Assembly: GCA_951406725.2 (NCBI GenBank) | Contig: OX597822.1 | Location: forward strand, 65,906,001 to 65,970,000 | Direction of reading: 5' to 3' | Origin: Octopus vulgaris | Taxonomy: Eukaryota | Length of the DNA stretch: 64,000 bases | Part shown: positions 8,411 through 64,000 of the stretch, piece by piece | How the letters are laid out: every line of letters begins with the position of its first letter | How positions within the stretch are numbered: position 1 is the first letter of the stretch | Translations under genes and position numbers: made by a program | The notes under the pieces: generated by a model | Database searches by the model: none | What the model saw: only the letters and a program-made list of their open reading frames with translations | Told to the model about the DNA's origin: nothing

Positions 8411-9042
8411 TCATCCCCTTCCTCTTTATCATCCATCCTTATCCTCCTCCCCATCGTCATCATTATGGTAATGCTTCCCCCACTCCTCTCACATTCAACA
8501 TCATCAATAACGTAGTAAATATATCAAAATGAAAATACTAATTCTTTAGGGTATCAACTTCTGTCAGTTGTAACCTCAGACGTATACTAAAACTAACTTC
8601 CCATGCTATCATGGTCGTTGAAACAAATAATACACTAGGAATTTAATATCAGCTCTAGTCAGAACAAATCAGTTTCGTTACTAAAAGAAATATCATAAAC
8701 CATTGTACTTGACAAGAAAGTATTCTACTTCACTAGATAACCAGTGTTCTTTTTTTCCCGTATAACTTACAAACAATGTAAAGGCCTCATATATAACACA
8801 AACAATTGTGATTCAATATCCATCCTTTTTTTTATTCTCGTTGGATTTTTTTCCCCTGTAATCTGTTCTACCTTTGTATTAGTCAGCAGTCATTCCGCTA
8901 AAAGGAAAAAAAAATTAACAGAAAAGCAAAAAGCAAAAATGACTCAAGTTGATTTAGTGTGGGACTATCTAACAAATTTCAGACACTGAGTATCGTAACG
9001 TCGCCTCTTATAACCGTCGCCTCTGATAACCCGGTCTATATA

Positions 9043-9614
9043 TTGAGTTGTCCGGAAAGTACATGCCGATTTTTAAAGGAAAGAAAAAGGCCAATAAATA
9101 CTTGCCATTACATTTTTAATCAACCAAATATTAACCATTTTGTTGCACAATGCATCTCCATCTTTCGTTTAACTTGAAAATACCCTTTTCCCAGAATTGA
9201 GGTGGTTCCATGGCAAAGAATTCATCAAGGTATCTTTTTACGTCATCCAAGGAATTGAAATTTTTATCATTAAGATTATTCTGCAGATACCTGAATAAGT
9301 GGAAATCCGAAGGAGCAATATCTGGTGAGTATGGAGGGTGAGGTAACATCCCAGCCGATCTGTAGCAATTTTTGTCTGGTTCCCAAAGCATCAAGTGCCG
9401 AAAATGAACTTACTTATCTTCCATTTTAAAGGGTTACAGAATTAACACAGGTTATAGGTACATAAACACATAAACCTTCTTCCACGAAAAGATAGCTTAA
9501 ACTGTCCTCTAAATGGAGGTGTAGTCAAATCCTATTTTATGGACTGAACCATGTTCTAAAATAAGTCGAAAGGTAAATTACTATAAATCGGCACGAACTT
9601 TCCGGACTGCCCAA
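9043..9614 (-). mobile_element. Internally deleted non-autonomous mariner element
   Basis: TIRs TTG(A/G)GTTGTCCGGAAAGT with TA flanks. The minus strand encodes an N-terminal MEDK.VHFRHLML fused to HPPYSPDIAPSDFHLFR...GIFKLNERW. Confidence 0.9.
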
Positions 9615-10169
9615 TAGTTATAAGTACTGAGGAAAGGGAATAAACTCACACGTTATAAAGTGGCGTACTGTGGTTATCAACCATTATTTGTTCTGTCATA
9701 CTTGATATATCGAAATAGAATATGTAAAATTTAAAAAAATTCAATGGAGCTTTTTACGATCCGTTATGTTATGAAATATCATTTCTAGTATATATAGACA
9801 CATGGCCTGAAATGTTGGTGAAAGGAGAAAAGGCAAAATCGATCTTGGCAGGATTTGAATTCAGTATGTATAGACGGGTGAGATCCCGCTAATCATTATA
9901 TCCCTCGTGCTAACGATTCTGCTAGATTCCCGTCTTAAAATCGATGTCAGTGGCATTAGAACTAAGAACACAGAGTAGGAAGAAATGCCGATAAGCACCT
10001 TTCGTCCAGCATGGTAACGATTCTGCCACCTCGCCACTACGTAGGTTACGAAATCTACCAAGTAAAAATGCATCAATATCCGTAAATTTTGACGAAGTAT
10101 CAAAGATCCGCTTACATATATAGTCGAAAGACACCTGTTGTTATGTCCTGATATTATTATTGTTATTGT

Positions 10170-17967: not shown

Positions 17968-18382
17968 TTATTTCTTTACTGCCCACAAGGGGCTAAATAT
18001 AGAGGAAACAAACAAGGAGAGACAAACGGATTAAGTCGATTATAACGACCCCAGTGCGTAACTGGTACTTATTTAACCGACCCCGAAAGGATGAAAGGCA
18101 AATTTGACCTCGGCGGAATTTGAACTCAGAACGTAATGGCAGACGAAATACCTATTTCTTTACTACCCACAAGGGGCTAAACACAGAGAGAACAAACAAG
18201 GACAAACAAATGGATTAAGTCGATTATATAGACCCCAGTGTATAACTGGTACTTATTTAATCGATCCCGAAAGGATGAAAGACAAAGTCGACTTTGGCAG
18301 AATTTAAACTCAGAAAATAGCAGCAGACGAAATACCGCTAAGCATTTCGCCCGGCGTGCTAAAGATTCTGCCAGCTCACCGC
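17968..18382 (-). mobile_element. SINE family B dimer
   Basis: Two ~184-bp units; the head is at the right end. Confidence 0.85.
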
Positions 18383-20031: not shown

Positions 20032-20583
20032 AAGACGACGAGCTTATCCGTATTGCGTCTGCCGTTACGTTCTAAGTTCAAATTCCGCCGAGGTCGACTT
20101 TACCTTTCATCATTTTAGGCTCGATAAATTAAGTACCAGTTACGTACTGGGCTCGATGTAATCGACTTAATCCCTTTGTCTGTCCTTGTTTGTCCCCTCT
20201 GCGTTTAGCCCCTTGTGGGTAGTAAAGAAATAAGTATTTCGTCTGCCGTTACGTTCTGAGTTCAAATTTCACCGAGGTCGACTTTGCCTTTCATGGATTC
20301 GGGGTCGATAAATTAAGTACCAGTTACGCACTGCGGTCGATATAATCGACTCAATCCGTCTGTATGTCCTTGTTTGTCGCCTCTGTGTTTAGCCCCTTGT
20401 GGGTAGTAAAGAAATAGGTATTTCGTCTGTCTTTAAGTTCTGAGTTCTAATTTTGCCGAGGTCAACTTTGTCTTTCATCCTTTCGGGGTCGATAAATTAA
20501 GTACCAGTTGCGTACTGGGGTCGATAGAATCGACTGCCCCCCTCCCTAAAAGTTTTCCGGCCTTATGCCTAGAGTAGAAAAGA
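20032..20583 (+). mobile_element. SINE family B trimer with target-site duplication
   Basis: Units start at 20050, 20234 and 20418 (184-bp period). Flanked by AAGTG(G/A)TAGACCCCGAA at 20015-20031 and 20584-20600. Confidence 0.88.
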
Positions 20584-22650: not shown

Positions 22651-22842
22651 GCCAAGCCGCCATTAAAATGGAACACAATTAAAGTCTACGTATGTGTCTA
22701 GGGCACACGTAACTGTGTTCGGTGGCACAATGAGAGCAAAAATTAAAAACTAAAACTTTTAAGATGTACTTTCTGTTTTGTAAATTCGACAAGGGAGATG
22801 GTTCTAGGGACATTATTGAACTGAAACACGACACACAGAAAT

Positions 22843-23272
22843 TGAAGAAGAAGAAGAAGAAGAAGAAGAAGAAGAAGAAGAAGAAGAAGAAGAAGAAGAA
22901 GAAGAAGAAGAAGAAGGGAGGAGGAGGATAAGAAGACGAAGAAGAAGAAGAAGAAGAAGAAGGGGAGGAGTAGGATAAGAAGACGAAGAAGTAGAAGGAG
23001 AAGGAGAAGAAGTAGAAGAAGACGATGGAGGAGGGGAGGAGAAGCAGAAGAAGAAGAAGGAGAAGATGATGGAGGAGGGGAGGAGAAAAGAGAAGAAGAA
23101 GAAGAAGAAGAAGAAGAAGAAGAAGAAGGAGAAGGAGAAGAAGGAGAAGGAGAAGAAGAAGAAGAAGAAGAAGAAGAAGGAGAAGGAGAAGAAGAAGAAG
23201 AAGAAGAAGAAGAAGAAGAAGAAGAAGAAGAAGAAGAAGAAGAAGAAGAGGAGGAGGAGAAGGAGAAGATAA
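22843..23272. repeat. (GAA)n/(GGA)n polypurine tract, ~430 bp
   Basis: Seen directly in the sequence. Confidence 0.95.
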
Positions 23273-24009
23273 AGAAGTAATATATACAAAATAGATATAG
23301 AAAGAAGAGATGAATGAGCTGAAAGGTTGCAAAAAAGTCAGATAAATAAATAAATGGAAGAAATGGAAGAAAAAGGGTTGAATGAATTATTATGTGTGTT
23401 GTTTGTGCGGGAAGAGAATATGAAACGGCCATTCTTTCTCTCTATATTTCTATTCTTTCGTAATAATAAAAAAAAAAAAGAAAGGCTCCTACCCACCTTC
23501 AGACCTGTTTTTCTTATTTCGTCTCATAATTATGCTCTGACAACAGCATGTAGTAGGAAGAGGAAGACTTGATTAAAGGGTGGGAGTAAAGAATAACAAC
23601 AACAACTACAACCACAACGACAAGAAAAAGGGCAACAAAAGATGTAAGGGGTAAAATGATGTATAAAGAAAAGAAAAGATCGTTGGTATAGAAAAAGTGA
23701 AAGGCAGAGTGGGAAGAAATGGTGATGGTTTTTGAAGGAGTTTATGAAAATTTGGAAGTAGGAGCAAAGAGAGAGAGAGAGAGAGCTGGATAGAGGGAGT
23801 TTGTGGTTTTGGAATACAAGGGGAGAGAGAGGGAAATATTGTTGTTCTGGGAGCGAAAGGGAAGGAGGGAAAAAGAAATAGTTCGAGTGTGTATAGGGTG
23901 TAAAAAGAGTGAGATAGAGAAGCCTGTGAATCAGAGAAGGAGGAAATAAAATGCGAGTAAAATGACAAAATAGAGCGCGGAGGAACAGAAAAGATGGAGA
24001 GGAATCTAA

Positions 24010-24025
24010 GAAATGAGAGAGAGAG

Positions 24026-24056
<31 letters not shown>

Positions 24057-24281
24057 GAGGGTGAGAGTGACGGGCAAGGAAAGAGGAATAGAAAGACAGG
24101 AGGGGGGGAAATGGTTGAGAGGGACGTGTAAGAATACTCTAGAGGCAGAAGAAAAGAAAATTAACAACTGAGCAACGTTGAGTGATACACAAAAGGCTGT
24201 GAGTGAATGAATGAATAAACAAAAACATAAAGAAATAATAATCGTAATAACACAAAATGAGAAGGATAGGAGGACACACAG

Positions 24282-24323
<42 letters not shown>

Positions 24324-24405
24324 TGTATATATATACATATATGTATGTATGTATGTATGTATGTATATGTGTGTGTATGAATATATATGTATGTATATGT
24401 GTGTG

Positions 24406-24446
<41 letters not shown>

Positions 24447-24680
24447 CATATATGTATGTATGTAATATATGTATATCTGTGTGTATGTTTGCGTATAGTT
24501 AGATCGATAGATAGACATAAATATAGATAGGTGTACTGATTATGAGATAGAAAGATGAATTAGTATATAGATAGGCAGGAAATTGTTTGTTAGTTAGTTC
24601 AAAGAGAGACGTAGACAGACCGACAGATAGGCTGAGAGTGAGAAATAGATAGACAGACAGATAGATAGATAGGTAGATAA

Positions 24681-24743
<63 letters not shown>

Positions 24744-24830
24744 TATAGATAGATAGATAAAGAGTGAATGAGAGAGAGAGAGCAAGGGAAAGAGTGTGTG
24801 TGTGTGCTTGCATGTGTGTGCATGAGGGAG
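24010..24830. repeat. Cluster of (GA)n, (TA)n, (TATG)n and (GATA)n microsatellites
   Basis: Seen directly in the sequence. Confidence 0.9.
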
Positions 24831-25619
24831 AGAGAGATTGAAGGATATGGGAAAATGAGAAAATAGCGAGAGATCTACAGAAATTAAAAGCGAATGAAAA
24901 GAGAGAGAGAACGATGGAGGGAAACAGAGAAGGGGTTGATTACGTGAGAGTGGGTGGGTATTTATGTGTCCCACTGAAGGGCTATGGAAAGACAATGGTA
25001 CAAACAAAAGTTAAATAATTTCTAGTTTAAAAAAAGAGAAAATAATAGTTTAAGAGAACGAAAGAGTAAGACTCGGGATACCAAGTGACGAATGGGTTAG
25101 ATAAACATACTAGAGTGGTAAAGGTGGTGTTGTTAATGATGGTCGAACTGACGATGATGATGATGATGATAATGATGATGGCAATAGTTATATTAGTGAT
25201 GATGGTAGTTCATGAATGTGAAGATGAGAAATAAAGAAAGAATACAAGAAGAAAAACAATAAAAAGGAACGGAATGAAATAAGAAAACGAAGCGGAAAGA
25301 ATAGTCCGTGGTGGTTATATGTCTCTCAAGGGACAAAGTATGCATTGTCTCTGGGCTGCTTAATTGTCGTGAGTAACGAAGCGTTAATGTAACTTGTATA
25401 GGTAACCTCTGACCTTGCAGCTATTGGCTTCGTGCATGAGGCAGGGAAAAGCAGCAGAGGATGTAGTGAAGTGTACGTGAGTATGTAAGTGTATTTATTG
25501 GTTAGTGAGAGGGGAGTTTGATATCTGTCTGTGCGTAAGAGCGAGGTGCGGTGAATTTTGTGTCAGGAACGATGGTCTAAATAGTTATTAGCTTCATCTA
25601 CGAAAGTGTTAAGCTATTA

Positions 25620-25711
<92 letters not shown>

Positions 25712-26490
25712 TTGTGTATATACGGATGCAAGAATAGATATGAATAGTTTTATGTATAACTGTACATATGCATGTGTATATACGGATGCAAAAATATGTG
25801 AATATTTTTATGCATAAGTGTATGTGTGAGTGTATGTATGTTTGTATGTGTATGCATACGGATGGAACATTTTGTGAATATTTTTATGTATAATTGTATG
25901 TGCGAGTGTATATATGTTTGTGAATTCTCCCTTCGCTATTTCGTAAACGCATACAAGGGAATCAATATTGAACAGCCCGGTAGTGTGACAGTGTGTATGT
26001 ATGTATGTATGTATGTATGTATGTATGTATGTATGTATGTATGTATGTCTGTGTGTGTATGTATGTATGCATGTAGGAATGTATGTATGTATGTGTGTGT
26101 GTATGTATGTATTTATGTATGCATGCATGTAGGAATGTATGTATGTATATATGTATGAATGTATGTATGTATGTATGAATGTATATATGTATATATGTAT
26201 GTATGTATATATGTATGAATGCATGTATGTATGCATATATATATGTATGAATGTATATATGTATATATGTATGTAAGTATGTATATATGTATGTATGTAT
26301 GAATGTATGTATGTATGCATGTGTGTATATATGTATGCATGTATGAATGTATGAATATATGTATATATGAATTTATATATGTATGTGTGTATGAATGTAT
26401 GTATGTATGTATGTATATGTGAATGTTTGTATGTATGTATGCATGTATGTATATAAGTAAGTATTTACCTATATTTGTGTGTGTGTGTAG
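25620..26490. repeat. (GA)n, (TG)n and degenerate (TATG)n field
   Basis: Seen directly in the sequence. Confidence 0.9.
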
Positions 26491-27966
26491 CTACGCAGAT
26501 GATGTAGTCTCTGTATATGGGTGTAGGTGTATTCGCATATAATATATATATATATACACGAGAACGCATGTGTTATCTATGTGTTTATGTGTGCATTATA
26601 TTAAATAGGTCGGTTGCATAAAGGCCTAGAGATAGTCCTGTGTATGCACGTAGCTGTCAGTATGGTTCTACTATGGTTTTCATGTGTATTTCGGCACATT
26701 TGTGTTCTTGTACACGAGGGAATGCACATTCATTGTTGTATGCCAGGGAGTGTACTTACATGCCCCCGTGAGTCTCTAGGTGTGTGTATATGTATGTATA
26801 AATGTGCGCGTGTGTGAGAGTGGTTATGGGTATGTGTCTGGATGTGAATCAGTAACTACGTTAGCAAGAGCATCGAGAGGCTGGGAAGTCACAGCAACGG
26901 TGTGTGTGTGTTAGTGGTGAAGGTTTGGGATGTGGAAAACGGTTAGGTTGGGATGGGTCGGGTGAAACAAATCACAAGCAGTTAATTCGTGTTCAGTCTC
27001 GGAAAAAAGAGAAATGGTAAAGGAGCGAAAATGAGAGAGAACGAGCGACCGAGAGCGAATGAGACGGAGATGGAGAGAGAGAGATAGTGGGGAGGATGGA
27101 GAGAAGGAGTGAAAATCGAGTGAAGGAGGGAGAGATAGAAAGAGAGATTCCATTTTCCATCTGGTACCAAAGTTCTTGATAGGTCAGCACCGAAAACATC
27201 AATTTGGGACAAAGCGTAAAAGAAGGCTCGGAAACATAAAATGTACTTGACAGATCGACGCACAAGTAAACAGTGGCAGGCAGATCGATTGCGAAGTACG
27301 TTCCTTTACGTTCGCTGTTCAAACCCTGTCAGTGTTGACATTAACTTTCAACAACGTGGGGTCGACATTAGTAAATAAGTTTAATAATAAAAAGTTATTG
27401 AAATTTCCCTCTAAAATTTATTCGGAGTCACAACATGTACGAATTGTCATTTAGTTTTAAGTCAGACTTGATCGTATACACACATATTCACAAGCATACT
27501 AGCGTTGACAATATCGTCACTTTTCTTGCCTAGATTGTTTTCCTTTTCTTTTTTTCCAGACAAGCCATTTTAGATTAAAATGTAATCCAATGACACAATA
27601 TCTGGTACAAGACCTTCAGATTGAACGACCGTCCTGAAATGGAAAAGAAATAATTGGAATTGTTCTCTCTCTTTATTTCAAGATCTATCTGATGAACCAA
27701 AATTTTCAATAACAATTCGCAACTACTTCGCAACCTCTCTTTTACTCTTTTACTCTTTTACTTGTTTCGGTCATTTAACTGCGGCCATGCTGAAGCATCG
27801 CCTTTAGTCGAGCAAATCGACCCCAGGACTTATACTTTGTAAGCCTAGTACTTATTCTATCGGTCACTTTTGCCGAACCGCTAAGTTACGGGAAGGTAAA
27901 CAAACAATCATCGGTTGTCAAGCGATGTTGGGGTGACAAGCACAGACACAAACATATGCACACATG

Positions 27967-28016
<50 letters not shown>

Positions 28017-28042
28017 CAATATGTTACATTACTCGGTAGTCA

Positions 28043-28105
28043 AGATAAAACTCTGAGTTTCAGATGCCGAAGTGGAAATCCACAACACCATCTCTTCGGT
28101 TATCT
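28043..28105 (-). ncRNA. Putative minimal hammerhead ribozyme in the 3' pLTR, sense to the GIY-YIG ORF
   Basis: Exact reverse complement of 29057-29119. Confidence 0.7.
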
Positions 28106-28308
28106 GGCTATTTGAAAACGTTATGAAAAAATACCGTTAAATAAAGGGAAATTACTCTGTTATAACTCTGCTTGCCTGCGTACTTATACATCGCTCGCAT
28201 TTTTCGTCATAAAAATTATATAAAAATACATAAAAAATATATAAAAAATATATAAAAATATATAAAAATATATAAATTCTTCTTGGGACATAACATAGAA
28301 AGCATGTT

Positions 28309-29028
28309 CTATCTGTTTTCTTTAGGGGACCAAAAACGTAACAGAAATTTAGTCACATGTGGGCATGATCCGAAAAGCTCTGTCCTTGTATTTAGACATG
28401 TAGTAGGGTCTAAGCTGCTTTTCCAGATAAGCCATCTCTCCATGTCGCATAGACCGCACCTTCCGCTGCCGTTAGTATAGGGCTCACATCTGGCCAAAAT
28501 CTTCCATTGTATGTTATAATCGACACCTTTATCTCTTAAAGACCAAATATGATTAGACAATTGTGTCGCTTTTCTTCTGTTCCAGTGCCTAAAGCTCAAA
28601 GTGTGGTTATTGAACCTGGCCTTGAAATTACCCTCTGTAAGGCCCACGTATTTCTTCGTCGAAACGGTGTCTTTAGTGGTTATAGAGTTTACGGTAGCTT
28701 CATAGATGATGGTCTTGGACATGCAAGCTCCATTTAGCGGGCACAATTCTTTATTCCTGCATGAACAGCTGTTTTCTTCTTGTGTTTTTTGTATGTTATG
28801 TTTGATTATGTTTTTAAAATTGGTAGTTGAACTAAAACTAATTTTTAAATTGTGTCTATTGAAGAGTTTCCTATAAGTATGGTTAACTGGAAAATGTATA
28901 TCTATCAGTGCTAGGAAATATTTACCTATATTGAAGGCCACCTCGGGTGAGTAAGGAAGCGTAAACCAGATGACCTTCTTATTTCTATTATTCCTTTTCC
29001 TTACTGTTGGGCTAGTGATATAGGTAAA
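28309..29028 (-). CDS. Penelope-like element ORF C-terminus: Cys-rich linker plus GIY-YIG endonuclease (RT domain missing)
   Basis: The frame is open from the IR junction: ...RNKKVIWFTLPYSPEV-AFNIGKYFL...CSCRNKELCPLNGAC...IIYEATV...KYVGLTEGNFKARFNNH...LSNHIW...CGLCDME...LNTRTE..CPH. The ORF track calls 28309-28941 from a GTG. Confidence 0.88.
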   Translation of the reverse strand, partial: FTYITSPTVRKRNNRNKKVIWFTLPYSPEVAFNIGKYFLALIDIHFPVNHTYRKLFNRHNLKISFSSTTNFKNIIKHNIQKTQEENSCSCRNKELCPLNGACMSKTIIYEATVNSITTKDTVSTKKYVGLTEGNFKARFNNHTLSFRHWNRRKATQLSNHIWSLRDKGVDYNIQWKILARCEPYTNGSGRCGLCDMERWLIWKSSLDPTTCLNTRTELFGSCPHVTKFLLRFWSPKENR

Positions 29029-29056
29029 TATTTTTTCATAACGTTTTCAAATAGCC

Positions 29057-29119
29057 AGATAACCGAAGAGATGGTGTTGTGGATTTCCACTTCGGCATCT
29101 GAAACTCAGAGTTTTATCT
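29057..29119 (+). ncRNA. Putative minimal type I hammerhead ribozyme (core CCGAAGA, GUU site)
   Basis: AGATAA (stem I), CCGAAGA, GATG...CATC(T) (stem II), GAAA, CTCAGAG-T (palindromic stem III), T, TTATCT (stem I'). Confidence 0.7.
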
Positions 29120-29215
29120 TGACTACCGAGTAATGTAACATATTGTATAGATAAATTTCATCTATTTACATAATATTGAGGTCTCTTTCTTTCTTTTGTT
29201 ATCTTACCGTTTTAT

Positions 29216-34470: not shown

Positions 34471-34673
34471 CCTAATTACAACAAGACGTGTTACAAAATT
34501 TGGCACCAGGCCAGTAATATTACGGAGAGTTCGTTACTCAAATCGTGTGCCGTACCAGTCTAGAAGAATGAAAGTGGAAGTTGAACACCGATGTAAATCG
34601 TCTGAAAAAGAAAAAAAGGCGATGAGCAATTTCTTTGACGCGCACACATTTCCACCTGCTCGCCTTCTTAATA

Positions 34674-35225
34674 TTGGGTTGTCCGGAAAGTTCGTACCGA
34701 TTTTTAAAGGAAAGAAAAAGGCTAATAAATACTTGCCATTACATTTTTAATCAACCAAATATTAACCATTTTGTTGCACAATGCGTCTCCATCTTTCCTT
34801 TAACTTGCAAATACCCTGTTCTTAGAATTGAGGTAGTTTCATGGCAACGAATTCATCAAGGTATCTTTTTACGTCATCCAAGGAATTGCAATTTTTACCA
34901 TTAAGACTATTCTGCAGAGACCTGAATAAGTGAAAATCCGAAGGAGCAATATCTGGTGAATAACACATCCCATCCGAGATGCAGCAATTTTTGTCTGGTT
35001 CCGAAAGCATCAAGTGCCGAAAATGAACTTTCTTATCTTCCATTTTAAAGGGTTACAGTATTAACACAGGTTATAGGAACATAAGCCTTCTTCCACGGAA
35101 AGATAGCTTAAACTGTGCTCTAAATGGAGGTGTAGTCAAATCCTATTTTATGGACTCAACCATGTTCTAAAATAAGTCGAAAGTTAAGCTGCTATAAATC
35201 GGCACAAACTTTCCGGACAACCCAA
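34674..35225 (-). mobile_element. Internally deleted non-autonomous mariner (same family as 9043-9614)
   Basis: TIR TTGGGTTGTCCGGAAAGTT at both ends with TA flanks. MEDKKVHFRHLML is fused to YSPDIAPSDFHLFRSLQNSL. Confidence 0.92.
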
Positions 35226-35499
35226 TATATTGCAATGATAATAATTCTTTCTTGTATAGTCAGAAAGCCTGATGGTATGGGGAAGGGAACTTGTCATTTA
35301 CTTCGAACTCCCACTGCGTGAATGATACATATCCAATCGACAAGGAGATGAAAATGAAAGACGACTTCGGCGGAATTTTTAATTTGTAAAGAGGGACGAA
35401 ATACAGCTTGGCATTTCGTCCGGCATACTAACAATTCTGTCAGCTCATCGCCTTATATAACAACCGTCATAATAATAACAACAACAGCAACTAAAACAC

Positions 35500-40321: not shown

Positions 40322-41598
40322 CGAGGGGCGTTCAATAAGTAATGCCCCTGACCTACTTGCTGTTGTTTGATCTAGCTGCCATTTTCCATATGCACTTATT
40401 TGTACCTCTATAGATTAAGTGGCGAACTACAGCTCTGAACTAATTTTGGTTTCTGATTTACAGGTGTTTGAACTGAGCCAAGTGTGAAATGGAGCCTGTT
40501 GAGTGTCGAGCAGTGATCTGGATTTTGTATTTGAAAGGACGCACACCACGGGAGACTTTTGATGAATTGAAAGTAACTTATGGTGAAGATGCCCCATCAT
40601 ATGACCTTGTAAAACGCTGGCATTGTGAATTCAAACATAGTCGGAACTCTGTGGAAACAGCTCCCAGATCTGGTCGCCCCCTTCTGCTGTTGAGACGTCT
40701 GTCCGTCAAGTTGAGGCTGCCATTTTGGAAGGTCAACGCATAACTATTCGCCAAATAGCCCATAAGGTCAAGATTAGTACCGGGTCTGTGGAAACTATCA
40801 TTCATGACCATTTGCATATGAAAAAGGTGTCTGCCAGATGGATTTCCAGGTTGCTCACACCTTTCCAGAAGCAAGATAAACGCGTTGAGTGCTCGAGAGA
40901 TGTTGAGTGCTCGAGAGATGTGCCAAGAAGTTGAGTCAAAATTTTTCAAAAGACTGATCACACAGGATAAAACCTGGGTCCATCACTATGATCCATAGAC
41001 CAAAGCCCAGCCAATGCAGTGAAAGCACCGTGACTCACCTCCTCCAAAAAAGGCAAGGGTGCAGCTCTCCGCTGACAAGGTTATGCTCACAGTCTTCTGG
41101 GACCAGGACGGAGTAGTGATGACAGATTTCCTGGCAAAGGGTACCACAATTACAGGAACCTATTATGCTTCACTTTTGAGGAAATTAAGAGAAGCTATCA
41201 AAATCAAGAGGCGGGGCAAGATCAGCAAAGGCATCCTCCTCCTGCAGGACAACGCTCCGGTCCACAACTCGCGTGTCGCCAGATCAGAAGTACAGGCATG
41301 CAGCTATGAAATCCTCCCCTTGCACCCTCTGATTTTCACCTCTTCCCAGCCATGAAGTTGATTTTGAAAGGAAAGCGTTTCCCAGACGATGCAGCCTTGA
41401 TTTCTGAAGTCACGTCGTGGATGGAGGACCAAGCTGGGGTCTTCTACAAAAACGGTCTCCAGAGCTGTATCAAACGATGGGAGAAATGCATAACTCTGGG
41501 TAGTTCCTATGTAGGAAAAGACTAATAACTGTGCCAAGTGTCGTTGCTCTACTGCTATGGGAAGTGGGTCAGGGGCATTACTTATTGAACGCCTCTCG
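40322..41598 (+). mobile_element. Near full-length mariner transposon (~1.28 kb; irritans/Himar1-like)
   Basis: TIRs CGAG(G/A)GGCGTTCAATAAGTAATGCCCCTGACC at both ends, with a TA TSD at 40320-40321 and 41599-41600. Confidence 0.95.
40489..41526 (+). pseudogene. Mariner DD34D transposase, frameshifted
   Basis: MEPVECRAVI...APRSGRP, KKVSARWISRLLT, TQDKTWVHHYDP, KVMLTVFWD, LLQDNAPVH and APSDFHLFP are split over several frames. Confidence 0.92.
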
Positions 41599-43984: not shown

Positions 43985-44019
<35 letters not shown>

Positions 44020-44240
44020 CATACATATATACATATATATATGCATACAAGATGTATATATATATGTGTGTGTGTATGTATGTGTATATGTATATATATA
44101 CACACACACACACATATATATAAATATATATACATATATATATATGTCTATATATATATCCATATATTACACATATATATCTATGTATATATATATATAT
44201 ATAGACACACACATATATATAGACGTATATATATATATAT
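43680..44240. repeat. (TA)/(TG)/(CA) microsatellite field
   Basis: Seen directly in the sequence. Confidence 0.9.
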
Positions 44241-44417
44241 AGTTGTACATGCCTTTATTATCCACTCCTTACTAATATATCCATCATAGAACGCCATTCA
44301 CTGACACTTCATTAACTTTCCTATTAAAGACGCTTATAAAATTCTCATTAATTTTGTGAATTTTCAAAAATTGGCTGAATTTAATTTCTATACTTAAGCT
44401 TAAACACAGGATTTACG

Positions 44418-46380
44418 GTGTGGTGGTGGTGTTGTTGTTGGTGGTGGTGTTGGAGTTGATGATGGTGGTGATGGTGGTGCTGTTGGAATTGATGGTAATG
44501 ATGGAGGTCACGGTGACGGTGATGGTGGTGTTGGTGGTAGTGGTTGCGGTGGTGATGATGTCTATGGTGGTGTCGGAGATGGTGGTCGTGCTAATGAAGG
44601 TGATGATGGTGGTGTTGTTAATGGCGATGGTAGTGGAGCGGGGTGATGGTGGTGGCGGTGGTTATGGTAGTGTTGATGCTAATAATGATGGCTGTAGTGA
44701 TGGTGAGATGTGTTGTTGCTATTGGTTCGTTGTCGTTGTTGTGTTTTTGCAGTTATGGTAATTGTGTTTGCGGTGATGGTTTCGCGATGGTATTGGTGAT
44801 GGTGGTGGTAGTAGGGATGGTATGTTGAATTCATGGTGGATATGGTGGAGATGATGTAGAGTTGTGGCGTTAGTGGTAGTTGCTATTATGGCGGTGTATT
44901 TCCTTGTGAGTGAAGGCGTGTAGCCTAGAGGTTAGGTTATTCAGCTCACAATCGTAAGGTCTTGAGCTCGATTCACGGCAGCGAATTGTCTCCTTGAGCA
45001 AGATACTATATACCCCGTAGCTTCAATCAACCCAGCTGGCAAAAATAAGTAGTACCTGTAATTCAAAAAGGGCCAACCTTATCACATTCTGTGTGTCAAA
45101 CTGAATCTCCCTGAGGACTACGTTAAGCGTACGCGTGTCTGTAGATTGCTCAGCCACTTACAAGTTAAGTTTACAAGGTAATTGCTCTGTTCGTTGGATC
45201 AACCAGAATCCTCGCCGTCGTAACCAATGGAGTACCAGTAACTTTTGCTGTGATAGTGTTGGTTTCTTTTACTGTCAGTGACTGTGTTGGTTGCGGTGAA
45301 TCTAATAATGGCAGTGTTGGTGGTGAATCTAACAATGGCAGTGGTTACGGGGAATTTAATGTCGGTGGTGTCATGCAGCGGTTGCTGTATGGTTGTTATG
45401 GTGATAGTTCTGCGTTTTAGTGGCGTTGTTATCAAGCACTGTTGTGCTAGTTCTGTGATTGCGTTAGTGGGTGTTTTGCTGTGACATGAATAGCAGCAGT
45501 ATTGATAGTGATGACACTGCGATTGTTGTAGTGGCGGAGGTAGTGATAGTGGTAGTGTACTGTGGCATATGGTTTTAGTAAGATGCTAGGTGGTGTCTGT
45601 TGGCGTGTTGTGGCACGCGTGGTGTGTGGTGGACACAATGCTTTGATAGAGGTAGAGATAAGAAAGTTAGAATACTGTTGTAATACTGTTTCTAGTAGTA
45701 GTGGTGGTAGTGGTAGTGGTGATAGTAGAGCGGTGGTACGTGCGCTGGTGGCGAACGGTATGGTTTAAGTAAGTGTGCGTACATGCATAGTGGTGGTGTG
45801 TAGTGAGGATAGAGGTAAGGTGCTGATCATGTGATGGTAAATATAGAGACAGTGATGCTGATGGTGATGGTGATGGTGGTGGTGATGATGATGTTGTTGG
45901 TGATGGTGGCGGTGGTAATGGTGGTGGTGATGTTTGTGATCTTGGTAGTGGCAGTAGTGGTGATGATGGAGATGTAAGGGGTTGCGGTGGTGGTGGTGGT
46001 GGTGGTAATGGTGTTGGTGATAGTGGTGATGGAGGTCATGATGGTGGTTATTGTGATGGTGGTGATGATTGCGGTGGTGGCAGTGATGATGCTGATGGTG
46101 GCAGTGGTGGTTGTGATGATAGAGTTGATGGTGTTGGGGATGGTGGTGATGGAGGTCGTGATGGTGATTATAATAGTGGTATTGGTGGTGATGGCATTGG
46201 TATTGTTGGTTGTGATGGGGACAGTTGTAGTGGTAGTGAGGATGATTGTGGTAGTCGCGGTGCTGCTAGTGGTTGCTGTTGTTGTTGTAGGTGGTGGTGC
46301 TGGTGGTGGTGGTGGTGGTGGTGGTGGTGGTGGTGGTGGTGGTGGTGGTGGTATTGTTAGTGGTGATGGTGATAGTGGAG
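44418..46380. repeat. Degenerate (GGT)/(GAT) low-complexity field
   Basis: GT-rich triplet repeats, interrupted by a SINE at 44912-45240. Confidence 0.85.
44912..45240 (+). mobile_element. tRNA-derived SINE family D (CORE-like)
   Basis: TAGCCTAGAGGTTAG (box A), GCTCGATTC (box B) and TCCTTGAGCAAGA. Homologous to 61322-61615 (minus). Confidence 0.75.
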
Positions 46381-46794
46381 ATATATTTTGAGGTGACGCG
46401 TGCGGTGGTGATTCAATGTGAAGTGGTAGTGCCGTGCTGCGGCGTGCAGTGTCGTTGATGGTGCATGGGGACGGTATAGTCTATTGTGCCGCGGGGTGTT
46501 GCTGGTGTTTGCATTGAAAGCTATGGAAGCTATATTGATAATAATGACGATGGCGTTAACATTTTTGACGTGCGGTAGTGTGTGGTGTTTATATAATGCC
46601 TGATGTTTGGCTCAGTATAAGAGGAAACGGTGGAAAGGAATGTGTTGTTGATTGCTGTTCTTTAGCCCGGGTTCGATTCTAACCCAGAAAAATCTATGAG
46701 CAATGACCAAAGATATTAAACATGCCACGCATGTACGTATATTTTAAACGTGTAGGAGACTACATAATCTAATGCACTCTTTATTTGGAAAAGT

Positions 46795-46952
46795 GATTGT
46801 CTTTACGTTTTGAGTTCAAATTCCACCCAGGCTGACTTTGCATTTCATCCTTTCGGGGTCGATAAATTAAGTACCAGTTGCATACTGGAGTCGATCTAAT
46901 CGATTGGCCCCCTCCCCCACCCAATTTCGGGCCTTGTGCCTAGAGTAGAAAA
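46795..46952 (+). mobile_element. SINE family B, 5' truncated
   Basis: GAGTTCAAATTCC...TTTCATCCTTTCGGGGTCGATAAATTAAGTACCAG...CCTAGAGTAGAAAAG. Confidence 0.8.
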
Positions 46953-47072
46953 GGAAAAGTGTTCTGGTATTCTTTGCCAGGAATTTGGCAGGTATTTTTA
47001 AATTCTTCAATACTAACGGATTTCATTTAGGTTATTATAATTACACAGACCGCAAAACACTTCATCATATAT

Positions 47073-54565: not shown

Positions 54566-55221
54566 TATAAATTCATATTTATACAAATATATAACTAATA
54601 TACATAGTTATACAATTACAGAAATAATATATAATATATATACAGCCACGTGAACACATACACACGCAGACACGCAAACATATAAATGCAAAAAGACACA
54701 ATCACACACACACGCACACACACACACACAAACACACACACATGCACGTACGAGCATACAAACATATATATGAGAAAGAAAAGGAGGTGGTGAGGACTGA
54801 TCGAGGGTTTATTGATTTTTAGCATGTTCACCTGTACACAGTTGGATATTATAAATATTTTTGATGCCTCTTCTTAATTTACATGCTGCGTTATTCGAAT
54901 AAAGAAATTTGTTGATGCTCCATTTTCGTTGTTACTTCTGTGAATTCCTAGAGTGTTCTGGTGCAGTTAACCTCTATTAATATGGAACAATTATACTTTG
55001 AGTTGTTTTCACTATTAGGCATAGATATATCTATCAAATTTCTTCCAAAATACCCTTGTTCGTCAGAGCTTTGTATGGAAAATATGTGGGCAAAACATTG
55101 AAGGAAATGATAAAAGTATCTTCTATATCCGCCGCACATAAAGTGGAGTCTGCATTAATGCACAGAAGAAGCCAGAGAAATACAGATAGAATATCTAATA
55201 TAAGTAGCTTGGTATGTATGA

Positions 55222-55277
<56 letters not shown>

Positions 55278-55447
55278 GGAGAATTCACAAAAAATAACAA
55301 AAGACGAAGACAACAAACAGATGTATCAGTATAACGCTCGGGAAATAAAAAAATTCTTTAACGTTTCGAGCCTACGCTCTTCCGCAGAAAGGAACACAGA
55401 AAGGAACAAGGAGAGAAAATAAAGAATGTGTAGTGGCTAGTGATCTA
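55278..55447 (-). mobile_element. Penelope pLTR-like repeat between (TA)n tracts, with a hammerhead-like motif at 55356-55391
   Basis: Homologous to 2633-2900. The minus strand reads CTTT-CTGCGGA-A-GAGC-GTAG-GCTC-GAAA-CG-T-T-AAAG. Confidence 0.6.
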
Positions 55448-55478
<31 letters not shown>

Positions 55479-55550
55479 ATATGTATATATAAATATATGA
55501 AAAAACAAGTCAAGATAGAAAATGCTAAAATAATTTTCTAAAGAACATTT

Positions 55551-55587
55551 CAGTACCGGTTTCAGTCATTTGAAACCTTTTCAACTG
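55551..55587 (-). ncRNA. Putative minimal hammerhead ribozyme, inverted copy
   Basis: The minus strand reads CAG-TTGAAAA-GGTTTCAAATGACT-GAAA-CCGG-T-A-CTG. It differs from the right copy only inside stem-loop II. Confidence 0.62.
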
Positions 55588-55711
55588 TAACGAAAATTTA
55601 GAAAAATTAAAAGAAAAGGTTTTTTAAAAGAATATTTGTATAGTGTTCAAATATAAGTGACAATTTCCTTGTTTCTGCCTTTCTCTGTCTCTCTTGTTTA
55701 CAATTGTGGGA

Positions 55712-56889
55712 TCATAAATGGGGTCCGGAACTCTCGTGGGAAAAAAATTTCGTGGCCCGGTCTGTCAAAGACCCGACCATTGTTTCGTAGACACGCCGTG
55801 TCACCACCATAGTCGATTAAATTAGTTTGATAGTTGATCTCTGATTGGCTGTATGCAAATAAGTTCATAAATGGGGTCCGGAACTCTCGTGGGAAAAAAT
55901 TTCGCGTCCTGGTCTGTCAAATTCCCGACCATCGTTTCGTAGTCACGCCGTTTCAACACTATCTTTGATTAAATTAGTTTGATAGTTGATCTCTGATTGG
56001 CTGTATGCAAATAAGTTCATAAATGGGGTCCGGAACTCTCGTGGGAAAAAATTTCGCGTCCTGGTCTGTCAAATTCCCGACCATTGTTTCGTAGTCACAC
56101 CGTGTCACTACCATATTCGATTAAATTAGTTTGATAGTTGATCTCTGATTGGCTGTATGCAAATAAGTTCATAAATGGGGTCCGGAACTCTCGTGGCAAA
56201 AAAATTTCGCGTCCTGGTCTATCAAATTCCCGACCATCGTTTCGTAGTCACGCCGTTTCAACACCATCTTTGATTAAATTAGTTTGATAGTTGATCTCTG
56301 ATTGGCTGTATGCAAATAAGTTCATAAATTGGGTCCGGAACATTCGTGGGAAAAAAATTTCGCGGCCTGGTCTGTCAAAGTCCCGACCATTGTTTCGTAG
56401 TCACGGCGTGTCACTACCATAGTTGATTAAATTAGTTTGATATTTGATCTCTGATTGGCTGTATGCAAATAAGTTCATAAATGGGGTCCTGAACTGTCGT
56501 GGGAAAAAAATTTCGCGGCCCGGTCTGTCAAATTCCCGACCATTGTTTCGTAGTCACACCGTGTCACCACCATATTCGATTAAATTAGTTTGATAGTTGA
56601 TCTCTGATTGGCTGTATGCAAATAAGTTCATAAATAGGGTCCGGAACATTAGTGGGAAAAAATTTCGCGGCCTGGTCTGTCAAAGTCCCGCGTCACCACC
56701 ATAGTTGATTAAATTAGTTTGATATTTGATCTCTGATTGGCTGTATGCAAATAAGTTCATAAATGGGGTCCTGAACTGTCGTGGGAAAAAAATTTCGCGG
56801 CCTGGTCTGTCAAATTCCCTACCATTGTTTCGTAGTCATGTCGTCTCACCACCATAGTTGATTGAATTAGTTTGATAGATGGTCTCTGA
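55712..56889. repeat. Tandem array of eight ~152-153-bp units
   Basis: CATAAAT landmarks at 55713, 55866, 56018, 56170, 56323, 56476, 56629 and 56758. Unit 7 has a ~23-bp deletion and unit 8 is truncated. Confidence 0.97.
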
Positions 56890-56978
56890 ATAATGCCACT
56901 TATATTTGGACACTATACAAATATTCTTTTAAAAAACATTTTCTTTTAATTTTTCTAAAGTTAATTATTTAATCGTTC

Positions 56979-57015
56979 CAGTTGAAAAGGCCTCAATTGC
57001 CTGAAACCGGTACTG
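56979..57015 (+). ncRNA. Putative minimal type I hammerhead ribozyme (U3-A8 core variant, GUA site)
   Basis: CAG-TTGAAAA-GGCCTCAATTGCCT-GAAA-CCGG-T-A-CTG. Stem III is the palindrome ACCGGT. Confidence 0.62.
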
Positions 57016-57254
57016 AAATGTTCTTTAGAAAATTATTTTAGCATTTTCTATCTTAACTTGTTTTTTCATATATATCAACTCGTGTGTTCCTTTTCATCCT
57101 TATACATATATATATATATATATATATACGTACTCGTGTATGTATTTATGCATCTGTGCATGTATGTGCATATTTGTGTGTGTTTAAAAATTATATACAT
57201 ATATATACATATATGTACATTATCTATATATATATCTATATTTATAGCTATGTC

Positions 57255-57285
<31 letters not shown>

Positions 57286-57349
57286 CACCCTTTATTATTA
57301 CTGATAACCATATTTTATCCCAGTATATATATATACATATATATATATA

Positions 57350-58200
57350 CGTGAAGGCTGATCAATGAATACCTGGACTGTAGCCAAAGTAATGAAGTTA
57401 AAGCACCCCGAGTGTAACTGCTCGACAAAAACTGTGCTTGAAATCTGCTGTGCTAGAGCATAAACTTTTTACGTTCTAGCTCACTTCCGCTCTTCACACT
57501 AGCGCTTGGGAGGAAGGTGTGTAGCATGTGAATGTCGCGTTGACCAAGCGAGTGAAAGTTGTCATGCTGATACCGGTTCAGAGGCCTACGCAACGTTCCA
57601 GAAAGGGTACGGTGAGGAGTGTATGAGCAGCACACAAGTGTACGAGTTTTTAAGACGTTTCCAAGATTGCCAAAAAAAAATGTCGATTTTGAAGAACGTT
57701 CTGGGAGGGCCGCAGCCAGCAGAACAGAGAAAATCATCGCAGATGTGTGTGCAGATGTGTGAAGTTATACAGATGAGTTATGGTTCAGTTTAGTCCTTTA
57801 TCACTAAAGATTTGGTTATGAGACGCGTGTCTACAAAAACTGTTTCCAGCTGACCAAGAAGGCACTCGGGGTTCAGTTGCACAAGTTCTTGATTGTGTCA
57901 AGAACTTTGAAAACTGTTTCAAAACTTTGCCTAGGTCCCTGAGCGGGTATTGCCAAGCTTTTGGCAAACGATTATGCAGATTGTCTGCTCAACTTTGCCT
58001 GTCGTGGTCAATGTGACGATCACTCGCTACACACGTTCATTCCAATCACTGCTGTAAACAGCGGAAGTGAGTCAGAACGTTAAAACTTAATCCACATGCA
58101 CAAGAGTGTTTACGGTCAATCCGTGCCAAGCGACTTAACTCTACATGCTTTAGCTTTGTTACTATGGCAACAGTCCAGCTATTTATTGATAAGACCACAC
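57350..58200. mobile_element. Mariner derivative made of two inverted 5' ends
   Basis: TIR-like CTGATCAATGAATACCTGGACTG / CAGTCCAGCTATTTATTGAT. The plus strand gives SEAYATFQKGYGEECMSSTQVYEFLRRF (mariner HTH-like). CTCACTTCCGCT and GTGTAGC occur on both arms in opposite orientation. Confidence 0.72.
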
Positions 58201-58210
58201 CCACATATAT

Positions 58211-58607
58211 ATTCTTTTATCCTTTTAATTCGTTTCAGTCATTTGACTGCCGCCGTGCTGGACCACCGAATTTTAATCGAACAAATCGACCCCAAGACTT
58301 ATTCTATCGGTCACTTTTGCCGAACCGCTAGTTACGGGCATGTAAATACACCAGCACCGGTTGTCAAACGATAGTGAGAGGACAGACATGCAAACACACA
58401 CGCGAGCGCACACACACATACATACATATATATATATACATATATACGACGGGCTCCTTTCAGTTTCTGTTTACAAAATCCACTCTCGAGTCTTTGGTCG
58501 GCCCGAGGCTATAGTGGAAGACACTTGCCCAAGGTGCTACGCAGTGGGACTGAACCCGGAACTATGTGGCTGGTAAACAAGCTACTTACCACACAACCAC
58601 TCCTGCA
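58211..58607 (-). mobile_element. SINE family A
   Basis: Collinear with the other family A copies; another tail fragment lies at 58675-58760. Confidence 0.85.
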
Positions 58608-62298: not shown

Positions 62299-63641
62299 CG
62301 AGGGAAATGAGACATTTGCATTTCGCAAACTTCGAATGCATAACAACGGGGAAATTAATCTCGGCCGTCATATACTGACATAATGAAGAGAAAATAATGA
62401 TCTCAAAAATATGCATTTTAATCATCAGGCCTAAGACAAAACAAAAAAAGTATGATTGTTCGAAAGTGTATATATTTTCAATTTGATCGACATAGCTTTT
62501 AATTATTTTACCAATCCCGGATATCTATCATGCAAATTCGACCGTCGCTTGCCGGATTTGCACTCAAGGACTCTCTGGGCCTAAGACGTTTGAAGATTAA
62601 TCCGATGCTCTTCCTAGTCTCTTAAATTACAGACGGATTTATATATAAATACTTTTGAAGTGAACCGTCTCGGCAGCAACAACAGGTTTAATATTGCTTT
62701 CTAATTGATTGAATATTGATTTTCAATGAGTATATTTAGTAGAAACAATCACCCAAATCAGTCATAATATAATACATATGCGACGGGAAAGGAAATCTTA
62801 CTTAATGATATCGTTTTACTTTAAATAATTCGAGAATTTCAATCAAAAATATTTAAAGAAAAGCACACATAAAGTACACAAATACCCACTCACCCACAAA
62901 CTCACAAACATATACATGATTCCTGTATTATAATATTTTCCAAAGCAGTAATTTCTAAAAATTCCTTCGAAGTAGGTTACCAGATACTTTCACCTGCAAG
63001 TGTGAAGTGACAATTATCAGGAAATATCAATTTTTTTCATAAGCTTTTCCTTGTGATATTTAAAAAATTAAAATTTCCACTTTTTTCGGTTAAAATATAA
63101 AACAAGAAGAATTCGAGAGAGAGAGAGAGGGGGGAGAGATGGAGAGAGAGAGGGAGGACTCGTTGCCAAGGTATAAAAGAAAATAAAGAAAAGTATTATG
63201 GAAGCACTGTGTCTCAGTGTAAGGGGAGATCTCGCAAGCATACTAATTGCGCAAGAGATGTAATAGAACACTCCCTGTCTGAACCCAAGTGCACTATTGC
63301 GGTTCCCCAAGTGCAATATGCAGTTAAAATCAGTGACTAATATATATATTTTAGAAATGAGGTCAGAAATTGATTTGGTTTGCGAGCGGTAGTTACATAT
63401 CAAAATGTTCAAAAGGTGGTGCCAATGTTTATGGTAACCTGACCTTTTGAGCAGCATTCTTTGTTCAGAAGGTGAAAAGTTATTTTGAAATATCAGTAGA
63501 CATGTGTATAAATTTCTACATGCATAATGCTCTAATACATAATTACACTCGCAAATATATACACTTATAATACATAAATACATACATGCAAGCGCACATG
63601 CTCCCACATATTTATTTATGTATAAATAGTGTGTGTGTGTT

Positions 63642-63683
<42 letters not shown>

Positions 63684-63713
63684 GAGAGAGACGCACACAG
63701 ACATATATATATA

Positions 63714-64000
63714 TACATGCATGGTCTGATCATTAAGTATCAGTGTTGTTGCCATAGTAACGAAGTTAAAGCACGCAGAGTAAAACCGATTGGCACAGAT
63801 TAACATCCAACTCTGCTGGGCATGCGCACTAAGTGTTACCGCTCTAATTCACTTCTGCTGTTTACAGCTGTGTCTTCGAAGGAAAGATTTTAGTATGTGA
63901 TCGTCGCATTGTCCGTGACATACATTTAAGGAGATCTTCGCAACTGAAACCCAGTGTCATTTCGGTCAGCTGAAAGCAGTTTTGACACACAGTTGGCATA
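63714..64000 (+). mobile_element. 5' end of a mariner-like element (family of 57350-58200), running off the window
   Basis: GGTCTGATCATTAAGTA...TTGCCATAGTAACGAAGTTAAAGCA...TCACTTCTGCTGTTTACAGC. Confidence 0.65.

What the first reader, a model, noticed from the sequence alone, without database searches (positions are those of the whole stretch)
55712..56889. Each array unit is a cluster of transcription-factor motifs with an invariant CCAAT+octamer block
Seen: the 37-bp block GATCTCTGATTGGCTGTATGCAAATAAGTTCATAAAT is identical at all seven complete junctions, while the rest of the unit varies. It holds an inverted CCAAT box (e.g. 55996-56000), a perfect octamer ATGCAAAT (56005-56012) and a TATA-like CATAAAT. 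Six of eight units also have CGTGGGAA (e.g. 55888-55895), and most have TTTCGCG (55900-55906). The units are CpG-rich compared with the flanks. Known: ATGCAAAT binds POU/Oct, CCAAT binds NF-Y, CGTGGGAA is the CSL/Su(H) consensus and TTTCGCG is E2F-like; CCAAT plus octamer is typical of vertebrate histone H2B promoters. Inference: this may be a multimerised, possibly bidirectional promoter/enhancer that could transcribe outward into both hammerhead arms or affect neighbouring genes.
Basis: partly seen in the sequence, partly recalled or inferred. Interest (0 to 1): 0.72.

Follow-up and report, generated by a model that had tools for sequence, protein, structure and literature searches.

The report
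Promoter-like repeat between retroelement ribozyme arms
A short tandem repeat with a well-kept pair of transcription-factor sites sits between two broken, back-to-back ends of a Penelope-type jumping gene in what looks like an octopus genome; it is most likely captured cargo, and whether it switches anything on is untested.

Summary
The 37-bp block is identical at 7 of 7 complete junctions of an eight-unit, 153-bp array and carries extended NF-Y-type and octamer sites, found together in 2 of 20,000 shuffles. The invariance is only suggestive: P = 0.007 by naive permutation, 0.05-0.26 with neighbouring changes merged, 0.01-0.15 in neutral array simulations. The quiet zone is really 58 bp. The CSL, E2F and ETS words vary between units, and the CpG excess is largely G+C content. 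The flanks are the informative part: two head-to-head arms, each with a minimal type I hammerhead (U3-A8 core), set in TA microsatellite, with a candidate one-sided tail. These are the published marks of Penelope-like element (PLE) ends, and a Hydra-clade PLE fragment in the same window has the same layout. Best reading: a promoter-like module from another repeat, captured between two truncated PLE ends and since evolving in concert. No transcript, host gene or second copy was found; no animal genome could be searched. Known kind of structure, unusual cargo.

The parts
55444..55496 (.). Left (TA)n-type microsatellite flank, the likely insertion target
55497..55711 (-). Left arm: 3' end of a Penelope-like element reading outward. 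55497-55662 pairs with the right arm; 55663-55711 is present on this side only
   Evidence: 10 substitutions in 166 aligned bases plus a 10-nt indel
55551..55587 (-). Left minimal type I hammerhead: 3-bp helix I, U3-A8 core starting at 55584, short helix II, T before GAAA, palindromic helix III, predicted cleavage after 55554
   Evidence: compared with PMC4209133 and PMC8557442 File S2; cleavage not tested
55610..55719 (-). Possible frameshifted remnant of the last codons of a PLE reading frame (two frames). By-eye resemblance only
   Evidence: no database support:
55712..55719 (.). Left junction: 8 bases TCATAAAT that begin unit 1 and may also belong to the arm (possible microhomology)
   Evidence: ambiguous because the parent PLE sequence is unknown
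55712..56889 (.). Tandem array of 8 units (152-153 bp; unit 7 is 129 bp; unit 8 truncated), partial 306-bp higher order, mean pairwise divergence 7.5%, mosaic variants, no open frame across it, no hammerhead inside
   Evidence: (18 of 78 site pairs fail the four-gamete test)
55836..55872 (+). Invariant 37-bp block, copy 1 of 7 (others start at 55988, 56140, 56293, 56446, 56599, 56728)
55967..56024 (.). 58-bp quiet zone, example copy: AT-rich stretch, CCAAT box, octamer, CATAAAT
55994..56002 (-). Extended NF-Y-type CCAAT site (pattern RRCCAATSR, recalled), example of 7
   Evidence: 7 in the array, 5 in the rest of the window
56004..56015 (+). Extended octamer site TATGCAAATAAG, example of 7
   Evidence: 7 in the array, 0 such 12-mers elsewhere, one 9-mer elsewhere
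55878..55906 (+). Variable motif group, example unit 2: ETS-like CCGGAA (55878), CSL-like CGTGGGAA (55888), E2F-like TTTCGCG (55900); each is lost in 1-2 of 8 units
56890..57073 (+). Right arm: shorter 3' end of the same PLE family reading outward
56979..57015 (+). Right minimal type I hammerhead: U3-A8 core starting at 56982, predicted cleavage after 57012
   Evidence: cleavage not tested
57074..57101 (+). 28-30 bp extension on the right arm only: candidate PLE 'tail'; could be host DNA
   Evidence: tails of 30-40 bp described in PMC8557442
57102..57130 (.). Right (TA)n-type microsatellite flank

Best explanation
The 1.6-kb unit 55497-57101 is one old insertion made by Penelope-like element (PLE) machinery into a TA microsatellite: two 5'-truncated PLE 3' ends joined head to head, with foreign DNA caught between them. 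The foreign DNA is a 153-bp repeat that came from a promoter/enhancer module of some other repeat or mobile element; its core is an adjacent NF-Y-type site and octamer (POU) site. Shown in sequence: the arms, their hammerhead anatomy, the TA flanks, the array and its uneven variation. Inferred: capture happened by a template jump during integration or by repair of the unstable centre of the inverted repeat; afterwards the units exchanged sequence by unequal crossing-over and gene conversion; the block stayed uniform probably because binding was or is selected, possibly by chance. The array may bind NF-Y and a POU factor and give local transcription, but it is a passenger, not the PLE's own promoter. 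Component odds: arms are PLE ends about 0.9; array is foreign cargo about 0.75; unit derives from a functional module about 0.6; active at this locus today about 0.25.
For: Arms: the only two U3-A8 hammerhead hits in 128 kb of both strands are the two arms, in mirror positions. The same core, opposite-strand pairs of minimal hammerheads and palindromic helix III are described for PLEs (PMC4209133). T before GAAA and (TA)n targeting are usual in Hydra-clade PLEs (PMC8557442 Files S1-S2). Inverted 5'-truncated copies and one-sided 30-40 bp tails are standard (PMC8557442). Capture of non-coding DNA between pLTRs is reported (PMC3846280). PLE protein nicks and extends both strands of AT-rich DNA in vitro (PMC11167929). 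Internal control: a PLE fragment at 28006-29215 with an endonuclease-like frame has the same head-to-head arms (98% over 128 bp) and TA flanks. In-place evolution: unit divergence (7.5%) is close to arm divergence (6%); edge unit 8 has 7 private changes against 0-3 in the others; 18 of 78 site pairs are incompatible. Module; no variable column in the 24 columns spanning both sites, P = 0.008-0.044; the signal survives CpG and G+C stratification, P about 0.0075.
Against: Only one locus: no second copy of unit or arm in the window and no animal genome to search, so the source of the unit is unknown. The PLE reading-frame remnant found no relative and did not beat shuffles convincingly against four PLE C-termini (best P = 0.04 of 12 comparisons). 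Rfam has no hammerhead hit, the monomers fold no better than shuffles (z = -0.43 and -1.70), and the descriptor finds 4 U3-A8 hits in 12 shuffled windows, so a single hit is not rare. No target-site duplication can be read in TA repeats. Invariance is compatible with neutrality at the 6-15% level if mutations cluster. The motif panel was chosen after the fact.
Confidence: 0.55

Rival explanations
1. Neutral minisatellite. The array is filler between PLE ends; the motifs are chance words and the block is uniform by chance or through a local conversion hot spot.
For: P of a 39-column run reaches 0.057-0.145 with clustered mutation and 0.26 with generous merging. The quiet zone extends over 18 AT-rich bases without the named motifs. 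CSL, E2F and ETS words decay. CpG excess is mostly composition, and octopus transposons are poorly methylated anyway (PMC9476566). Both array ends fall in the block (chance 0.065), as for junction motifs of nematode satellites (PMC3694981 abstract).
Against: Extended NF-Y and octamer sites together in 2 of 20,000 shuffles; 0 of 344 window segments match the motif score; the invariant run coincides with the two strongest sites.
Confidence: 0.2
2. Self-driving non-autonomous PLE family. The units are internal promoter monomers that transcribe outward through a hammerhead arm; PLE enzymes copy that RNA in trans and regenerate the inverted arm at each insertion. The minus strand (array into the longer left arm) would be the body.
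For: pLTRs suffice for mobilisation in trans (PMC3846280). The right arm is a shorter copy of the left, as expected for a regenerated inverted copy. On the minus strand the CCAAT box reads forward and is followed by the conserved AT-rich stretch. Satellites with internal polymerase II promoters in their most conserved part exist (PMC2220036).
Against: One copy in 64 kb; arms 6% diverged, so not recent; the candidate tail is on the shorter arm; no transcript data; hammerhead cleavage was not needed for PLE insertion in vitro (PMC11167929).
Confidence: 0.13
3. Foldback or MITE-type DNA transposon with about 170-bp terminal inverted repeats, TA target duplication and internal tandem repeats; the hammerhead look is inherited or accidental.
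For: Both arms end at the same base next to TA; inverted ends around internal tandem repeats are a common MITE layout (recalled).
Against: Complete hammerhead anatomy of the PLE type in both arms; unequal inner ends; same layout as the PLE fragment at 28006-29215.
Confidence: 0.06
4. Host-recruited enhancer. The block is kept by selection at this very locus because it regulates a host gene.
For: Unit divergence matches arm divergence, so most variation may have arisen in place, and then so would the constraint.
Against: No host gene found among 184 of 231 frames scanned (exons under 55 codons are invisible to this); the neighbourhood is repeats; no comparative or chromatin data.
Confidence: 0.06

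Closest known systems
Penelope-like element insertions with inverted pLTRs and captured DNA (Adineta vaga Pen1/Pen3a cases, PMC3846280; PLE layout, PMC8557442)
   Same: Head-to-head truncated 3' ends of about 180-220 bp, minimal hammerheads, AT-rich target, one-sided tail candidate, unrelated non-coding DNA of about 1.2 kb between the ends.
   Different: The cargo here is a tandem array with promoter-like sites. The published cargo was unique spacer DNA or a host gene, the gene lying between direct pLTRs. No target-site duplication and no reading frame can be shown here.
PLE minimal hammerheads, U3-A8 variant (Schistosoma Cercyon family, PMC4209133)
   Same: Same core covariation, palindromic helix III, U/AU-rich context, two motifs on opposite strands.
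   Different: About 1.4 kb apart rather than 100-700 bp; helix II is 3-4 bp rather than 7-8 bp and has drifted between the arms; activity untested.
Satellite DNAs with internal promoters or conserved boxes (beetle PRAT, newt satellite 2 as cited in PMC2220036; Meloidogyne junction motifs, PMC3694981)
   Same: Tandem unit whose most conserved part looks like a polymerase II promoter; array ends fall in the conserved part.
   Different: Eight units at one interspersed site, not a large satellite as far as can be seen; transcription not shown; no hammerhead in the unit, unlike newt satellite 2.
Metazoan non-LTR retrozymes (PMC7229834)
   Same: Short tandem repeats of 150-450 bp and type I hammerheads in an invertebrate genome.
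   Different: Retrozymes carry one canonical hammerhead per unit in direct orientation; here the units have none and the two hammerheads are minimal and inverted.
Vertebrate histone H2B promoter (recalled, not checked in a paper)
   Different: Order and spacing differ, the sites are multimerised, no histone gene was found nearby, and the host is an invertebrate.

Membership tests
Penelope-like element ends (pLTRs) | Minimal type I hammerhead with conserved core, palindromic helix III, U/AU-rich context | tested here: met
   (both arms, U3-A8 core); compared. Helix II short and drifted
Penelope-like element ends (pLTRs) | Inverted, 5'-truncated copy in head-to-head arrangement | tested here: met
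   inner ends differ by 49 bp
Penelope-like element ends (pLTRs) | Insertion into AT-rich or microsatellite target | tested here: met
Penelope-like element ends (pLTRs) | Optional 30-40 bp tail at one end | tested here: inconclusive
   28-30 bp one-sided extension at 57074-57101; cannot be told from host DNA
Penelope-like element ends (pLTRs) | Link to a reverse transcriptase plus GIY-YIG endonuclease reading frame | tested here: inconclusive
   30-34 residue remnants gave no hit; too short for these searches
Penelope-like element ends (pLTRs) | Self-cleavage of the hammerhead (as dimer or protein-assisted) | not testable with these tools
   co-folding of two right-arm copies pairs helix III between copies, the left arm does not; folding is not activity
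Non-LTR retrozyme | One type I hammerhead in each tandem unit | tested here: not met
   0 hits in the array on either strand with strict and relaxed patterns
Non-LTR retrozyme | Stable self-paired unit RNA with covariation | tested here: not met
   plus strand, 6 of 8 units: 0 of 39 predicted pairs with a compensatory change; minus strand not folded
Promoter-bearing satellite or promoter monomer array | Binding-site block more conserved than the rest of the unit | tested here: inconclusive
   P = 0.007-0.26, 0.013-0.145, 0.008-0.044 directed; 7-8 related units only
Promoter-bearing satellite or promoter monomer array | Motif content above chance | tested here: met
   panel recalled and chosen after the fact
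Promoter-bearing satellite or promoter monomer array | Transcription starts in the unit and depends on the sites | not testable with these tools
   no expression or chromatin data; the promoter scanner covers bacterial sigma-70 sites only (0 found, not informative)
Foldback / MITE DNA transposon | Terminal inverted repeats with a target-site duplication | tested here: inconclusive
   inverted ends present; duplication unreadable in TA repeats
Foldback / MITE DNA transposon | Many copies with the same termini and a cognate transposase | not testable with these tools
   1 copy in 64 kb; no animal genome collection
Histone H2B-type promoter | CCAAT boxes upstream of octamer and TATA box, in front of a histone gene (recalled) | tested here: not met
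   spacing 4 and 5 bp; no histone domain in 184 of 231 frames scanned

The most novel reading that the evidence does not exclude
A non-autonomous Penelope-type family in cephalopods that carries its own multimerised NF-Y/POU promoter between two inverted hammerhead arms, transcribes outward through them, is copied in trans by PLE enzymes, and so scatters ready-made enhancer arrays through the genome. None of my ten paper searches listed such an element.
Probability: 0.13. Interest if true: 0.68.

Novelty: new variant of a known kind. Interest (0 to 1): 0.33.

Why it matters
As it stands it is one more case of PLE ends trapping foreign DNA, with an unusual cargo. It matters modestly as a route by which retroelements could move clustered binding sites in cephalopod genomes, where PLEs are abundant and include recently active families (PMC13282606). 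If it is a family with a working internal promoter, it would give a small, testable substrate for two open questions: how PLE inverted ends form, and what PLE hammerheads do. A read-through transcript would also fold back on itself through the 170-bp arms (duplex about -206 kcal/mol), a possible substrate for RNA editing or small-RNA pathways (inference).

Tried and rejected
Rfam, whole window at gathering score: 0 hits; 55200-57200 at E up to 10: 35 weak hits, mostly on TA repeats, none a hammerhead. Coding repeat: all six frames of the array are interrupted, longest open stretch 68 codons. Retrozyme: no hammerhead in the units, no covariation. Vector, plasmid or phage origin: no match in 72,556 plasmids or 50,697 phages. 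Other copies in the window: none by blastn or nhmmer profiles; nearest match to the block has 13 mismatches in 37; one looser CCAAT-octamer pair at 62511 is not homologous. CpG hypermutability or base composition as the cause of the quiet block: stratified permutations left P at about 0.0075. Arm reading-frame remnant: nothing in Pfam, 1.84 billion representatives, the 5.8-billion set with longer proteins, the Atlas (best 0.85, lead level only) or the PDB (2 irrelevant repeats); not significant against four PLE C-termini; arm and unit motifs absent from the Naiad/Hydra supplement except one unrelated hit. tRNA genes: 0. The primary paper on the newt satellite 2 promoter was not held. The O. 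vulgaris repeat library is on Zenodo and could not be seen; it may already contain this unit or these arms.

Full report
Observation. The array spans 55712-56889 (period 153, with a 306-bp higher-order call). It has eight units; unit 7 lacks 23 bp and unit 8 stops just before its CCAAT box. The 37-bp block is present exactly seven times in the window, once per complete junction. CGTGGGAA is in 6 of 8 units and TTTCGCG in 7 of 8.

Is the invariance more than chance? Across units 1-7, 26 of 153 columns vary and the longest invariant run is 39 columns. Permuting columns gives P = 0.007 (0.004 for the 35-column run when the partial unit 8 is included). Holding CpG columns fixed or stratifying by G+C leaves about 0.0075. 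Merging changes within 1, 2 or 3 nt into one event gives 0.045, 0.095 and 0.26. A neutral simulation with point mutation and in-register gene conversion gives 0.013-0.028 without clustered mutation and 0.057-0.145 with it (17 of 18 parameter sets usable). The low-variation region is wider than the block: 58 columns with one variable site against 25 in the other 95 (P = 0.0007-0.037, window size chosen after the fact). A directed test on the 24 columns covering the two best sites gives 0.008-0.044. The signal is therefore suggestive and not decisive.

Is the motif content more than chance? With a recalled panel of 25 animal consensus words, unit 3 has 7 hits against a mean of 2.3 in 5,000 dinucleotide shuffles (P = 0.0024), and 0 of 344 non-microsatellite window segments reach its rarity score. 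The panel was written after reading the finding, so this overstates the case. More telling, both core sites are in extended form: an NF-Y-type RRCCAATSR on the minus strand and TATGCAAATAAG on the plus strand (patterns recalled). They occur together in 2 of 20,000 shuffles. The CSL, E2F and ETS words are each broken in one or two units, so only the CCAAT/octamer/CATAAAT part behaves as if constrained. The CpG excess is mostly G+C content: 19-25% of 129 matched segments reach it. In octopus, transposons carry little methylation (PMC9476566, passages), so CpG richness is weak evidence of a promoter there.

The flanks. The array sits between inverted arms, 55497-55662 and 56894-57069, which differ at 10 of 166 bases plus a 10-nt indel. 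The left arm runs 49 bp further inward. A type I hammerhead descriptor run on both strands of the window returned three hits: the two arms, with a U3-A8 core, and one decayed motif at 55387. Twelve shuffled windows gave four U3-A8 hits in all, so one hit alone is not rare; the mirror position and full anatomy are what count. Cervera and de la Pena describe this core covariation, palindromic helix III and opposite-strand pairs for PLEs (PMC4209133, parts 1-2 of 4 of the text and supplement passages, one supplementary file not searchable). The T before GAAA is usual in (TA)n-targeting Hydra-clade PLEs (PMC8557442 Files S1-S2, supplement part 2). Inverted 5'-truncated copies and a one-sided 30-40 bp tail are typical of PLE insertions (PMC8557442, passages); the right arm has a 28-30 bp extension at 57074-57101. 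Against this: Rfam finds no hammerhead, the monomers fold no better than shuffles, and helix II has drifted between the arms. The inner part of the left arm reads by eye like the end of a PLE endonuclease in two frames (against the alignment), but no search supported this.

Internal control and host. At 28312-29046 (minus) a 245-residue frame matches three database proteins (best E = 6e-52), has a weak GIY-YIG score (E = 0.026, below the cut-off; one relative passes it), and ends like the Hydra-clade proteins, nearest by eye to the Octopus bimaculoides one (PMC8557442 Fig. S7). It is framed by head-to-head arms (28006-28133 and 29029-29156, 98% identical) in TA repeats, with a hammerhead-like core and the same T before GAAA. 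It is a different family from the arms studied here. The host is probably an octopus: this rests on that resemblance and on recalled SINE look-alikes, and was not tested directly.

History of the array. Mean pairwise unit divergence is 7.5% (units 1-7), close to the 6% between the arms; 13 biallelic sites are shared between units and 18 of 78 site pairs fail the four-gamete test. Edge unit 8 has 7 private changes, the others 0-3. This fits one insertion followed by unequal crossing-over and conversion in place (inference). Both ends of the array fall in the conserved block (chance 0.065), and the left junction has 8 bases that could belong to either side. No other copy of unit or arm is in the window, and there is no plasmid or phage match.

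Mechanism. The array lies 5' of both PLE ends. A PLE's own promoter and 5' region lie in and downstream of a sense pLTR (PMC3846280 passages; PMC11167929 parts 1-2 of 4), so the array is foreign to the PLE. Capture of non-coding DNA between pLTRs, and mobilisation of it in trans, are reported in rotifers. The purified PLE protein cleaves and extends both strands of AT-rich DNA and does not need hammerhead cleavage for insertion. The most likely story (0.55) is capture of a promoter-like repeat from another element during integration or during repair of the inverted junction, then concerted evolution. Rivals: neutral filler (0.2), a self-driving non-autonomous family (0.13), a DNA transposon (0.06), a host-recruited enhancer (0.06). 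No host gene was found among 184 of 231 stop-free frames of 55 codons or more, which include all from 14.9 kb on; the only Pfam hits were mariner transposase pieces.

Comparison and verdict. It works like published pLTR-flanked captures, and its cargo resembles satellites whose most conserved part is a putative promoter (PMC2220036, passages; PMC3694981, abstract). It is not a retrozyme (PMC7229834, passages; no hammerhead in the units) and not an H2B promoter (recalled features; spacing). Ten paper searches listed no description of this unit or of such a combination, but the O. vulgaris repeat library (PMC13282606, part 1 of 3 and passages) could not be inspected. Verdict: observation confirmed, interpretation partly supported, new variant of a known kind, interest 0.33.

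Noticed in passing
window 28006-29215: Young-looking Hydra-clade PLE fragment: 245-residue stop-free endonuclease frame (28312-29046, minus), inverted arms 98% identical, a longer extension on one side, TA flanks; its hammerhead-like core has C in place of U4.
   Followed up: partly
window 55278-55448 and 2634-2823: A second short repeat family (78% identical copies) with a decayed minimal hammerhead on the minus strand; one copy lies just outside the left arm, in the same orientation, across a TA run.
   Followed up: partly
window 40477-41352: Broken mariner transposase (HTH_48 and Transposase_1 Pfam hits).
   Followed up: no
window 57335-58212 and 63701-63920: Element with about 220-bp inverted ends (71% alike) right of the array, and a partial copy near the window end; mariner-like by eye, not tested.
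   Followed up: no
window 62511-62537: A looser, single CCAAT plus octamer pair with no homology to the array unit.
   Followed up: partly
window 17969-18336 and 20050-20535: Tandem 184-bp copies of an abundant short interspersed repeat that also occurs singly at several places in the window.
   Followed up: no
window 9040-9616 and 34671-35227: A 577-bp direct repeat, 89% identical, of unknown family.
   Followed up: no
window 22800-27000 and 44000-47000: Long strand-biased stretches (GC skew up to 0.65) made of GAA, GA, TGTA and TGG simple repeats.
   Followed up: no
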